From NCBI RefSeq assembly GCF_003334405.1, contig NZ_QOWM01000008.1: 64,000 nt of DNA; one strand, given 5' to 3'. The DNA is from Escherichia coli. Its GTDB lineage: Bacteria; Pseudomonadota; Gammaproteobacteria; Enterobacterales; Enterobacteriaceae. The notes below the pieces were generated by a model. The model was given only the letters and a program-made list of their open reading frames with translations. It searched no databases and was not told the origin of the DNA. The position numbers and the translations under genes were made by a program. Positions 49,780-50,350 of this stretch are shown one piece after another. Within the stretch, counting starts at the first letter, position 1; each line of letters starts with the position of its first letter.

Positions 49780-49996
49780 GGGGGGGCGCTTTTCCCCTCA
49801 CCCTAACCCTCTCCCCAGAGGGGCGAGGGGACCGTATTGTGCAAATATTGTTACCCCAGCAACAAACAGGCTCATACAGCCCCTAACCCTTTCATGGCGA
49901 TGGCTGGGACGGTTCAGACCTTGCCGAATATTCTCCAGCACCGTCTCCATGTTTTCACCACAACAGCTATTCGGCTCGGTCTGCCCCCTCGCTCTT
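49780..49996. repeat. Intergenic repeat cluster: GC-rich imperfect palindromes plus a partial direct duplicate of the ycjD 3' end
   Basis: ccctctcccc-agag-gggcgagggg (49805-49830) and inverted relative cccctcgctctttcagggagaggg (49984-50007); 39-bp direct repeat 49910-49948 vs 50006-50044 with 23 identical terminal bases. Confidence 0.55.
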
Positions 49997-50350
49997 TCAG
50001 GGAGAGGGTGACCGGCGGTTCAGTTCCTGCAGAATATTCTCCAGCACCGTCTCCTCATTACAATCAATCTCGTTATTCCAGAAACGCAGCACGGTCCAGC
50101 CCTGCGACTCAAGCCAGCTAGTGCGCCTGGAATCATAGGCAACTGCTAAATCATGCTGCCCACCATCCAGCTCAACGACTACACGCGCCGAGCAGCAAGC
50201 AAAATCGAGAATGTAGCTCCCCACTGGATGTTGACGGCGAAATTTGAAATCACTAAAACGTCGGCTGCGAAGATATCGCCAGAGCTTTCGTTCCTGCAAA
50301 GTGAGATTGCGTCTTAAATCACGCGCATTTGATTTAATTTTATCTATCAC
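49997..50350 (-). CDS. ycjD: DUF559 endonuclease-like protein YcjD; GTG start
   Basis: 117-aa ORF; last codons and stop lie inside the GC-palindrome repeat. Confidence 0.85.
   Translation of the reverse strand: MIDKIKSNARDLRRNLTLQERKLWRYLRSRRFSDFKFRRQHPVGSYILDFACCSARVVVELDGGQHDLAVAYDSRRTSWLESQGWTVLRFWNNEIDCNEETVLENILQELNRRSPSP

What the first reader, a model, noticed from the sequence alone, without database searches (positions are those of the whole stretch)
49780..50044. fabI–ycjD spacer is built from GC-rich palindromic repeats and a duplicate of the ycjD 3' end
The 367-bp spacer holds the imperfect palindrome ccctctcccc-agag-gggcgagggg (49805-49830) and an inverted relative cccctcgctctttcagggagaggg (49984-50007) that supplies the last codons and stop of ycjD. 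A 39-bp segment at 50006-50044, inside the ycjD coding 3' end, recurs at 49910-49948 in the spacer with 33/39 matches and 23 identical terminal bases. This suggests a repeat insertion remodelled the ycjD C-terminus. The motif resembles GC-rich enterobacterial intergenic repeats (possibly the boxC class), but I cannot confirm the family.
Basis: partly seen in the sequence, partly recalled or inferred. Interest (0 to 1): 0.3.

Follow-up and report, generated by a model that had tools for sequence, protein, structure and literature searches.

The report
BoxC repeats bound to DUF559 nuclease gene
The GC-rich palindromes between fabI and ycjD are known E. coli BoxC ("triplex-motif") repeats, and homologues of ycjD, a small nuclease-like gene, end in this kind of repeat across many bacterial phyla, which points to a possible maker or carrier for a repeat family whose origin has been unknown for 30 years.

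Summary
The palindrome at 49795-49830 (- strand) is letter-for-letter TMECO #9 of E. coli MG1655, also called BoxC or PIT. BoxC was first reported in the 1992 envM (= fabI) paper, so this appears to be its founding locus. The second palindrome (49986-50008) is a decayed type-B BoxC that encodes the last codons and stop of ycjD. The direct repeat is 49910-49948 versus 50016-50054 (35/39), not 50006-50044. It is the core of a ~106-bp tandem duplication of [ycjD 3' end + BoxC]; E. ruysiae and one divergent E. coli allele lack it.

The BoxC-encoded tail is not a one-off insertion. Nearly all enterobacterial YcjD (DUF559) homologues end in PSPRPSP*, which is the reverse complement of a type-B BoxC. 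In 80 DUF559 loci from many phyla, 70 of 81 gene ends run into such a C/G-rich hairpin, against 11% of control ORFs. In 47 of 80 an inverted partner lies just upstream of the start, and the two ends co-vary.

I read this as a nuclease gene bounded by inverted BoxC-type repeats. It resembles the RAYT-REP pairing but uses a Vsr-like PD-(D/E)XK nuclease. The association is shown here. Action of the enzyme on the repeats is inferred.

The parts
49795..49830 (-). Complete BoxC / PIT / TMECO element, type A with one stem mismatch: CCCTCGCCCC-TCT-GGGGAGAGGG-TTA-GGGTGAGGGG. On the ycjD coding strand it reads hairpin first, then purine tail ('F' orientation).
   Evidence: It matches the TMECO regular expression and is the only full match in the 64-kb window. 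It is identical to TMECO #9 of MG1655 (1351239-1351204) and to #16, #19 and #22 in Table 1 of PMC4666352. The predicted DNA hairpin is -12.4 kcal/mol, z = -3.0. O157:H7 diverges from the window close to this element.
49986..50008 (+). Decayed type-B BoxC: CCCTCGCTC-TTTCA-GGGAGAGGG. It is nearest to TMECO #10 (CCCTCGCCC-TTTCA-GGGAGAGGG-CCG-GGGTGAGGGT). The third block (about 50009-50020) has been lost or rewritten. On the ycjD strand it reads tail first, then hairpin ('R' orientation), and it encodes ...S P S P stop.
   Evidence: Relaxed hairpin pattern match. Inverted-repeat pair I1 with the other BoxC. Comparison with Table 1 of the paper. E. ruysiae and a divergent E. coli allele keep the full tail TCACCCTCACCCCAGCCCTCTCCC at this position. 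The K-12 version folds poorly, -4.6 kcal/mol, z = +0.8.
49952..50054 (-). Copy A of the ~106-bp tandem duplication: the last 18 codons of ycjD and its stop, the decayed BoxC, and about 45 nt downstream.
   Evidence: Local gapped alignment of the two units; core 39-mer at 35/39.
49848..49948 (-). Copy B of the duplication: a gene-less relic of the ycjD 3' end (reads ETVLENIRQGLNR, versus ETVLENILQELNR in ycjD), followed by a more decayed BoxC relic (CCATCGCCA-TGAAA-GGG-TTA-GGGG, which includes CCCTAACCCTTTC at 49881-49893).
   Evidence: This segment aligns to the single unit of E. ruysiae and allele L101. Some E. coli alleles fuse ycjD to this copy, giving proteins that end ...ENIRQGLNRPSHRHERVRG...GPLAPLGRGLG (P0004, P0012).
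49997..50350 (-). ycjD, 117 aa, a DUF559 family protein (Vsr-like PD-(D/E)XK nuclease fold).
   Evidence: Pfam PF04480, E = 1.5e-49. NCBIfam equivalog NF007294. PDB 3HRL 'endonuclease-like protein', E = 1e-27. D49, E60, D62 and H66 are invariant in 33 homologues. Present in 3378 of 5426 complete E. coli genomes.
50347..50393 (.). Near-perfect AT-rich palindrome of about 20 bp arms between the sapF stop and ycjD. Its last arm contains the ycjD GAGG and GTG start. It is not a BoxC.
   Evidence: Fold -18.6 kcal/mol, z = -8.0, 0 of 200 shuffles as good. Rfam shows only spurious miRNA-like hairpin matches here. Sequence read.

Best explanation
What is in the window. The spacer is the 3' flank of an old [DUF559 nuclease gene + BoxC repeats] unit that has partly decayed in K-12-type E. 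coli. Reading the ycjD strand, the order is:
- ycjD;
- a type-B BoxC in 'tail-then-hairpin' orientation, whose pyrimidine blocks are the last codons (SPSP, ancestrally SPSPQPSP) and whose first loop holds the stop codon;
- a 106-bp tandem duplicate of [gene end + BoxC];
- an intact type-A BoxC (TMECO #9) in 'hairpin-then-tail' orientation;
- the fabI promoter region.

Shown here:
(1) The elements are BoxC/PIT/TMECO.
(2) The duplication and a 12-nt loss are derived states within Escherichia.
(3) DUF559 genes from Enterobacteriaceae to Omnitrophota, Elusimicrobia, Chloroflexi and Melainabacteria nearly always run into a BoxC-type triplex motif. It starts a median 36 nt (mostly 16-62 nt) after codon 106, in one orientation.
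(4) Outside the enterics, an inverted partner usually sits just upstream of the start codon, so the gene lies between inverted repeats with their tails pointing inward.
(5) The two ends co-vary within a locus and resemble the dispersed solo copies in the same locus.
(6) Four of the five BoxC doublets of K-12 have the same tails-inward geometry, with only 16-27 nt where the gene would be.

Inferred. The DUF559 protein is a Vsr-like nuclease with an intact set of conserved acidic and histidine residues. I propose that it recognises the BoxC-type structure or sequence and nicks or cuts there. This would promote copying of the repeat, and occasionally of the whole cassette, to new sites. It would also promote the local duplications, deletions and replacements seen at BoxC loci. 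On this view the solo and doublet BoxCs are gene-less derivatives. The gene is a mostly single-copy, largely vertically inherited 'master', as RAYT is for REP/REPIN.

The PSP...GEG peptide tails are a by-product of the ORF running into the DNA element, because their reading frame is not conserved across the family.
For: Identity of the repeat:
- Exact match to TMECO #9 and to the consensus.
- BoxC was first reported in the envM/fabI paper.

Derived duplication:
- E. ruysiae (L099) and E. coli allele L101 carry one unit with a full tail. K-12-type and STEC316 carry the extra ~94 net bases.
- At least 3332 of the 3378 ycjD+ genomes have the duplicated form.

Family-wide link:
- About 80% of the 120 best homologues end in PSPRPSP or PSPQPSP.
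- In L002-L008 the DNA reads CCCTCACCC-CGG-CCCTCTCCC-TGA-AA-GGGAGAGGG, the reverse complement of a type-B TMECO. L011 uses type A, where the loop TTA becomes the TAA stop.
- 70/81 gene ends have the hairpin and 53/81 also have the oriented third block.
- Controls in the same loci: 154/1371 and 52/1371; Fisher p = 1.5e-49. Background is 0.43 hairpins per kb per strand.

Upstream partner:
- 47/80 have an F element upstream, 53/80 an R element downstream (47 R plus 6 with blocks on both sides), and 31 are scored F upstream and R downstream.
- F versus the reverse complement of R: 0.84 identity within a locus against 0.74 across loci, p = 9e-11. The own partner ranks first in 16/33.
- Solo copies more than 400 nt away resemble the gene-linked copy of the same locus: 0.79 against 0.735, p = 7e-6.

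Mobility:
- A 502-bp unit (F + gene + R) is 99.8% identical at two sites of one Omnitrophota genome. Each copy is flanked by its own 8-9 bp direct repeat, TGAATATT and AGTTCAAAA.
- The gene sits at fabI-sapF in E. coli but at hemW-yggN in Enterobacter and relatives.

Relatives are selfish nucleases:
- The same Vsr-like fold forms the EDxHD homing endonucleases (PMC3239194; grouped with DUF559 in PMC3424549).
- I saw DUF559-like domains inside what look like inteins in viral contigs.

Independent hints:
- 'DUF559 domain-containing protein' is 14-fold enriched among genes hit by predicted inversions, that is, genes with inverted repeats around them (PMC9881135).
- Strict TMECO counts are highest in the E. 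coli phylogroups that carry ycjD: A/B1/C 13-30, against B2 1-2.
- Tandem repeats of the 3' motif also occur in L031, L058 and L078.
Against: - No enzymology exists for YcjD, and nothing here shows that the protein touches BoxC DNA.
- In Enterobacteriaceae the upstream partner is missing (all ten enteric loci score '-' upstream). The gene is single-copy and syntenic within genera. It therefore behaves as a resident gene, not an active transposon.
- E. coli phylogroups D, E and F lack ycjD yet hold 6-15 TMECOs. K. oxytoca has the gene but only 1-2 strict TMECOs. The count trend is also confounded with phylogeny.
- Evidence for a target-site duplication rests on one genome.
- The 80 loci were the best tblastn matches to a query that included the SPSP tail. 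That may slightly favour tailed homologues, although the G arm and the upstream partner lie outside the query.
- With a tail-less query on viral contigs, the 13 close homologues mostly have a hairpin within 160 nt (11 of 13), but only four within about 60 nt and at more variable distances, in high-GC DNA.
- As summarised by Holder et al., Hoyne & Maher found no promoter, terminator or in vivo replication effect of PIT elements. Holder et al. saw no stable triplex in vivo.
- The one characterised DUF559 protein, Caulobacter VsrA, was interpreted as a mismatch-repair nuclease.
Confidence: 0.55

Rival explanations
1. The repeats are expression-control or transcript-end structures of a resident (possibly toxic) nuclease gene, not mobility signals. 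The upstream hairpin plus purine tail would supply and gate the ribosome-binding site. The downstream hairpin would stabilise or end the mRNA. The 5' G-rich and 3' C-rich tails could pair with each other. Dispersed BoxCs would be unrelated copies of a structure that spreads by other means.
For: In L012, L039 and L079 the purine tail of the upstream element ends a few bases before the start codon and looks like a Shine-Dalgarno sequence. The gene is single-copy and syntenic in Enterobacter. In E. coli a different strong palindrome covers the ycjD start, as if start-site occlusion were being selected for.
Against: It does not explain why the same repeat is dispersed in tens to more than a hundred gene-less copies. 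It does not explain why the K-12 doublets mimic the cassette ends. It does not explain the 502-bp unit found at two sites with flanking direct repeats. There is no T-run terminator at the BoxCs. PIT elements showed no promoter or terminator activity in the work summarised.
Confidence: 0.2
2. The two inverted repeats are recombination sites for programmed or accidental inversion of the DUF559 gene, acting as an on/off or orientation switch.
For: Inverted, co-varying repeats bracket the gene. DUF559 proteins are enriched 14-fold among predicted programmed-inversion targets.
Against: I saw no invertase gene next to the cassettes whose genes were listed. The repeats are only about 35-40 bp. I did not see both orientations of one locus. 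In enterics there is no upstream partner.
Confidence: 0.08
3. One reading: a BoxC inserted once, in the E. coli lineage, into the end of ycjD and rewrote its C-terminus.
For: BoxC does encode the last codons. BoxC loci are known to be unstable.
Against: The same BoxC-encoded tail, in the same frame, is present in homologues at about 60% identity in at least ten other genera and at a different chromosomal locus. The E. coli-specific events are a deletion and a duplication, not an insertion.
Confidence: 0.03
4. The association is passive. BoxC-type repeats preferentially insert into, or survive in, the flanks of DUF559 genes (for example because of a target motif or weak selection there), with no functional link.
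For: Repeats accumulate in variable intergenic DNA. The reading frame of the repeat relative to the ORF is not conserved (23/20/26 across the three frames). That would fit repeated independent arrivals.
Against: The position is narrowly constrained (mostly 16-62 nt after codon 106) and the orientation is fixed at both ends. Enrichment is 8-17-fold over other ORF ends in the same DNA. The two ends co-vary.
Confidence: 0.12

Closest known systems
BoxC / PIT (potential intrastrand triplex) / TMECO repeats of E. coli (Bergler 1992; Hoyne & Maher 2000, 2002; Holder et al. 2015, PMC4666352)
   Same: The element at 49795-49830 is a catalogued member (TMECO #9). The one at 49986-50008 is a decayed member. 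Both lie in a strain-variable region, as reported for these loci.
   Different: The literature I could search treats the repeats as purely intergenic, with no associated gene and unknown origin. Holder et al. contains zero mentions of ycjD or DUF559. Here one copy is part of a coding sequence, and the family is tied to DUF559 genes.
REP / REPIN elements and their RAYT transposases (PMC3337134)
   Same: A short GC-rich palindromic repeat dispersed in many copies. Doublets occur in inverted orientation. One usually single-copy, vertically inherited nuclease gene is flanked by inverted copies of the same repeat.
   Different: The enzyme is a Vsr-like PD-(D/E)XK fold, not an HUH tyrosine transposase. 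The repeat has a third block (triplex-type). The enteric genes have lost the upstream copy. No transposition has been demonstrated.
EDxHD homing endonucleases such as I-Bth0305I (PMC3239194), grouped with DUF559 and Vsr (PMC3424549)
   Same: Same nuclease fold group. These enzymes have proven selfish behaviour. They recognise a pseudo-palindromic target.
   Different: Those enzymes carry extra DNA-binding domains and live in introns or inteins. YcjD is a bare 117-aa domain lying between repeats. The one two-site case shows flanking direct repeats, which homing does not produce.
Vsr and Caulobacter VsrA (DUF559; PMC12907096)
   Same: Same domain. VsrA causes DNA damage in vivo, so at least one DUF559 protein is likely an active nuclease.
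   Different: Those enzymes are linked functionally to cytosine methylation and T:G repair. I did not check the VsrA locus for repeats.
IS200/IS605-type elements and MITEs
   Same: Subterminal hairpins at both ends of a one-gene unit, and gene-less short derivatives.
   Different: Different enzyme class. Most DUF559 cassettes are single-copy.

Membership tests
BoxC / PIT / TMECO repeat | Sequence CCCTCNCCC-N3-6-GGGNGAGGG-N3-GGGNGAGGG | tested here: met
   49795-49830 (- strand) matches exactly and equals TMECO #9. 49986-50008 meets only the first two blocks, with one arm mismatch; its third block is not met.
BoxC / PIT / TMECO repeat | Dispersed multi-copy family in the same genome | tested here: met
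   The spacer query hits a median of 4 places per E. coli genome, and the extra places fall on the BoxC part. Published count is 23 copies in MG1655, three of them identical to this one. There is only one full copy in this 64-kb window.
BoxC / PIT / TMECO repeat | Ability of the G-rich strand to fold back into an intrastrand triplex | not testable with these tools
   Only a hairpin can be predicted here: -12.4 kcal/mol, z = -3. CD and NMR evidence for this sequence class is in PMC4666352.
DUF559 (PF04480), Vsr-like PD-(D/E)XK nuclease | Profile match over the whole domain | tested here: met
   Pfam E = 1.5e-49 over residues 4-111. NCBIfam equivalog score 268 bits against a cutoff of 218. PDB 3HRL E = 1e-27.
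DUF559 (PF04480), Vsr-like PD-(D/E)XK nuclease | Conserved acidic and histidine residues of the active site | tested here: met
   D49, E60, D62 and H66 are invariant in 33 homologues. Their assignment as catalytic residues is by analogy to the Vsr/EDxHD motif described and has not been shown for YcjD.
DUF559 (PF04480), Vsr-like PD-(D/E)XK nuclease | Nuclease activity | not testable with these tools
   No biochemical data on YcjD were found.
RAYT-REP-type partnership (works like; not a member) | Nuclease gene flanked by inverted copies of the dispersed repeat | tested here: met
   31 loci are scored F upstream and R downstream, tails inward. The ends co-vary. In E. coli and other enterics only the downstream side is present.
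RAYT-REP-type partnership (works like; not a member) | Enzyme is an HUH Y1 transposase | tested here: not met
   The protein is DUF559 / PD-(D/E)XK. It is therefore not a RAYT.
RAYT-REP-type partnership (works like; not a member) | Repeat abundance depends on presence of the gene | tested here: inconclusive
   TMECO counts: A/B1/C (ycjD+) 13-30, B2 1-2, but D/E/F 6-15 without ycjD. The trend is confounded with phylogeny.
Homing endonuclease gene | Presence/absence polymorphism at a cleavable target with precise, duplication-free junctions | tested here: not met
   The only two-site case has 8-9 bp flanking direct repeats. The E. coli polymorphism is a replacement by the eefRABCD island, not an empty target.
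Intrinsic terminator | GC-rich stem followed by a T-run | tested here: not met
   No terminator-like site is called at either BoxC.
Any Rfam RNA family | Covariance-model match | tested here: not met
   Only sub-threshold chance hits in 49000-51000.

The most novel reading that the evidence does not exclude
DUF559 (the YcjD family) is the missing partner enzyme of BoxC/PIT/triplex-motif repeats throughout Bacteria. On this reading it is a Vsr-like nuclease that recognises the fold-back repeat and drives its spread and the instability around it. This would be a second, independently evolved 'repeat plus resident nuclease' system alongside REP-RAYT. The gene-between-inverted-repeats cassette would be the autonomous form, and BoxC singlets and doublets its gene-less offspring.
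Probability: 0.4. Interest if true: 0.8.

Novelty: new variant of a known kind. Interest (0 to 1): 0.62.

Why it matters
BoxC/PIT/TMECO repeats have been known since 1992 and have been studied structurally. They correlate with genome instability, but their origin, their means of spread and any associated protein are unknown. DUF559 is a very large family with no assigned function; E. coli YcjD itself is uncharacterised. A tight physical link between the two gives each a testable hypothesis in E. coli K-12, which carries one ycjD and 23 repeats. If the nuclease acts on the repeat, this would be a new class of repeat-mobilising or repeat-processing system. It would also explain why these loci are rearrangement hot spots, including the ycjD/eefRABCD swap next to the essential gene fabI.

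Tried and rejected
- Tandem Repeats Finder on 49600-50200 found nothing. The two 106-nt copies are too diverged, so the duplication rests on pairwise alignment.
- An Rfam scan gave only chance hairpin hits.
- The promoter/terminator scan shows no terminator at the BoxCs.
- PADLOC gave no defence-system match, and PHROGs gave only weak hits to families of unknown function.
- I considered that the PSP tail is a selected part of the protein. I rejected this for the family at large, because the repeat's frame relative to the ORF is spread evenly over the three frames and most ORFs read through it. That frame measure is crude.
- I considered chance or composition. This is rejected by the control ORFs and by the shuffles.
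- I tried to use identical proteins found on many contigs as evidence of mobility. P0072 and P0033 turned out to sit at one conserved locus, hemW-yggN, so they give no such evidence.
- The viral-contig scan with a tail-less query gave few close homologues. Most hits were a different thing: intein-borne Vsr-like domains.
- I did not fetch the 18 K-12 TMECO loci to look for DUF559 remnants beside solo repeats.
- Full-text searches for DUF559, ycjD, TMECO, boxC and 'potential intrastrand triplex' found no paper that links the gene family to the repeats. The library lacks most subscription journals, so prior description cannot be excluded.
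Full report
**1. What is at the coordinates.**
The window is E. coli. fabI lies at 48841-49629 (-), ycjD at 49997-50350 (-) and sapF at 50418-51224 (-) (annotation under hits). The spacer is 49630-49996, 367 bp.

The first palindrome sits at 49807-49830. The second is at 49985-50008 and overlaps the ycjD codons S-P-S-P and the TGA stop.

The direct repeat is real, but the ycjD-side copy is at 50016-50054, not 50006-50044. It matches 49910-49948 at 35 of 39 positions, with a 23-nt identical end. 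In 200 dinucleotide-preserving shuffles the best 39-mer direct match was 24.

The 20/25 complementarity between the two palindromes is not exceptional for this composition (shuffle maximum 22). Their significance comes from what they are, described next.

**2. Identity of the palindromes.**
On the minus strand, 49795-49830 reads CCCTCGCCCC-TCT-GGGGAGAGGG-TTA-GGGTGAGGGG. This fits the published consensus CCCTCNCCC-N3-6-GGGNGAGGG-N3-GGGNGAGGG. It is identical to TMECO #9 (type A with one mismatch; MG1655 1351239-1351204) in Table 1 of Holder et al. 2015.

That paper equates TMECO with the PIT elements of Hoyne and Maher and with BoxC. For the first description of BoxC it cites Bergler et al. 1992, the envM (= fabI) sequence paper. 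This spacer therefore appears to be the founding locus of BoxC.

The second palindrome, CCCTCGCTC-TTTCA-GGGAGAGGG, is nearest to TMECO #10 (CCCTCGCCC-TTTCA-GGGAGAGGG-CCG-GGGTGAGGGT) but has lost the third block. As DNA it folds weakly (-4.6 kcal/mol), whereas TMECO #9 folds at -12.4 kcal/mol with z = -3.

**3. The duplication.**
A gapped alignment extends the 39-mer to two adjacent units, 49952-50054 and 49848-49948. Each holds the last codons of the DUF559 gene followed by a BoxC or BoxC relic: ETVLENILQELNR in ycjD, ETVLENIRQGLNR in the relic.

E. ruysiae (L099) and a divergent E. coli allele (L101) have a single unit at the same fabI-sapF locus. That unit has a full tail, TCA CCC TCA CCC CAG CCC TCT CCC TGA (SPSPQPSP*), followed about 57 nt later by the same type-A BoxC.

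K-12-type strains therefore carry two derived changes: a 106-bp tandem duplication and a 12-nt loss in the tail. The 12-nt difference was also noticed, without explanation, in the EefABC paper.

At least 3332 of the 3378 ycjD-positive complete genomes have the duplicated form. Protein variants in the database show further recombination between the two copies and read-through forms (P0004-P0016). This fits the instability reported for TMECO loci.

In the remaining ~2000 genomes the whole ycjD-BoxC segment is replaced by the eefRABCD efflux island. The breakpoint is close to the BoxC.

**4. The unexpected part: the tail is family-wide.**
YcjD is a DUF559 protein (Pfam E = 1.5e-49; NCBIfam equivalog; PDB 3HRL). 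About 80% of the 120 best database homologues end in PSPRPSP or PSPQPSP. These include Kluyvera, Enterobacter, Klebsiella, Lelliottia, Phytobacter, Scandinavium and Franconibacter, at 55-70% identity.

At the DNA level this tail is CCCTCACCC-CGG-CCCTCTCCC-TGA-AA-GGGAGAGGG, the reverse complement of a type-B TMECO. Loop 2 (CCG) becomes the Arg codon. In E. cloacae L011 a type-A element is used instead, and its TTA loop becomes the TAA stop.

In these genera the gene lies at a different locus, hemW-yggN.

**5. Generality and controls.**
A scan of one genome per species returned 80 loci. They range from Enterobacteriaceae to Xanthomonadales, Betaproteobacteria, Alphaproteobacteria, Elusimicrobia, Omnitrophota, Chloroflexi, Planctomycetes and Melainabacteria.

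- Of 81 gene ends, 70 have a C-rich/G-rich hairpin starting 16-102 nt (median 36) after codon 106.
- 53 also have the extra pyrimidine block on the gene side, which makes a full triplex-type motif in one orientation.
- Other ORF ends in the same DNA show 154/1371 and 52/1371 respectively (Fisher p = 1.5e-49).

Upstream of the start codon, 47 of 80 have the mirror-image element, hairpin then purine tail. Thirty-one are scored with this element upstream and the tail-then-hairpin element downstream; a related count gave 33 usable pairs. The gene then lies between inverted repeats whose tails point inward. This can be read directly in L012, L039 and L079.

The two ends of one locus are more alike than ends from different loci (0.84 against 0.74; the own partner ranks first in 16 of 33; p = 9e-11). 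Solo copies elsewhere in a locus resemble that locus's gene-linked copy (p = 7e-6).

The reading frame of the repeat relative to the ORF is not conserved. The constraint is therefore on DNA position, not on the peptide.

**6. Relation to the gene-less repeats.**
From the coordinates in Table 1, four of the five K-12 TMECO doublets (#1/2, #7/8, #10/11, #12/13) are hairpin-tail, 16-27 nt, tail-hairpin. This is the cassette geometry without the gene.

The fifth doublet (#17/18) is tail-hairpin, 59 nt, hairpin-tail. That is the arrangement found downstream of ycjD in E. ruysiae and in Enterobacter, Phytobacter and Pseudocitrobacter.

**7. Signs of mobility.**
In one Omnitrophota genome a 502-bp unit (upstream repeat, gene, downstream repeat) is 99.8% identical at two sites. 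It is flanked by TGAATATT at one site and AGTTCAAAA at the other, which looks like target-site duplication. This is a single case.

Other multi-copy genomes have old, diverged copies.

Relatives with the same fold are proven homing endonucleases. The distant hits in viral contigs are followed by motifs I recognise, from general knowledge, as intein C-termini. Those hits carry no such repeats.

Strict TMECO counts in E. coli track the phylogroups that carry ycjD: A/B1/C 13-30, D/E 10-15, F 6-7, B2 1-2. This trend cannot be separated from phylogeny.

An independent screen found DUF559 proteins 14-fold enriched among genes associated with inverted repeats.

**8. Interpretation.**
Shown: the identity of the repeats, the history of the E. 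coli spacer, and a strong, oriented, position-specific association between DUF559 genes and BoxC-type repeats across Bacteria.

Inferred: that the DUF559 nuclease acts on these repeats, so that the pair works like RAYT-REP. That system has a resident nuclease flanked by its repeat and many gene-less copies.

It is not a member of the RAYT family, because the enzyme fold differs. It fails the homing-endonuclease test available here, because flanking direct repeats are present and no empty target was found.

Rivals are expression control of a toxic gene, an inversion switch, and passive accumulation of repeats. They remain possible, and each explains fewer of the observations.

**9. Novelty.**
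The BoxC at this locus is already known. I found no paper linking it, or triplex motifs in general, to DUF559 or ycjD. Holder et al. state that the motif is always intergenic and that its origin is unclear. The search library omits most subscription journals, so prior description cannot be excluded.

Noticed in passing
window 50347-50393: A strong palindrome (CACCTCATTCTGACAAAAGATTAAATCTTGTCAGAATGAGGTG; -18.6 kcal/mol, z = -8) lies between the sapF stop and ycjD. Its 3' arm contains the GAGG and the GTG start of ycjD, so it could occlude translation initiation or end the sap transcript. Enterobacter-type homologues have a different, weaker palindrome (ctgccggcag) at the same place.
   Followed up: partly
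L001 / L083 (O157:H7) versus window ~49753-50417: In about 38% of complete E. coli genomes the ycjD + BoxC segment is replaced by a ~7.9-kb eefRABCD efflux-pump island. Homology to the window is recognisable up to about 49790, at the edge of the BoxC. The swap itself is published (PMC12817139), but that paper does not mention the BoxC at the junction.
   Followed up: partly
L079 3887-4388 and L080 3887-4388: A 502-bp DUF559 cassette is 99.8% identical at two sites of one Omnitrophota MAG. Each copy is flanked by its own 8-9 bp direct repeat (TGAATATT; AGTTCAAAA), which looks like target-site duplication. The unit ends lie 56 and 31 nt outside the triplex motifs.
   Followed up: partly
L117-L182 (viral contigs), just downstream of the match: Distant DUF559/Vsr-like domains (query residues ~46-106) are followed by ...VYDLEI.DNHNYFANNILVSNCH. 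I recognise this as an intein C-terminal block, so these are probably intein-borne homing endonucleases in phage genes. No triplex motifs lie next to them.
   Followed up: no
L030 and L075, ORF running on from the DUF559 gene: A long HrpA-like helicase ORF contains several in-frame peptide stretches of the repeat type (SPQPLSQRARG, LPLPLGEGWGEG, LTPTPLPKGEGL, SPSPSGRGVGV). This suggests triplex-motif repeats inserted in frame inside a conserved gene.
   Followed up: no
L058 ~4330-4480; also L031, L078, L053, L027: The 3' repeat is present as two or three tandem copies after the DUF559 gene in several unrelated lineages. This echoes the 106-bp duplication in E. coli and suggests that local amplification at this end is recurrent.
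   Followed up: no
L084-L096: In Enterobacter and relatives the DUF559 gene sits at a fixed locus, yggS-yggT-yggU-rdgB-hemW-[DUF559]-yggN-yggL-trmB-mutY. This differs from the fabI-sapF site in Escherichia, so the gene has moved at least once within Enterobacteriaceae.
   Followed up: partly
window 49749-49886 (+) and 49798-49950 (-): Two short ORFs in the spacer (45 and 50 aa) are artefacts of the repeats. One reads the BoxC as ...PLTLTLSPEGRG. The other is the relic of the ycjD end, read on into the BoxC as ...GPLAPLGRGLG.
   Followed up: yes
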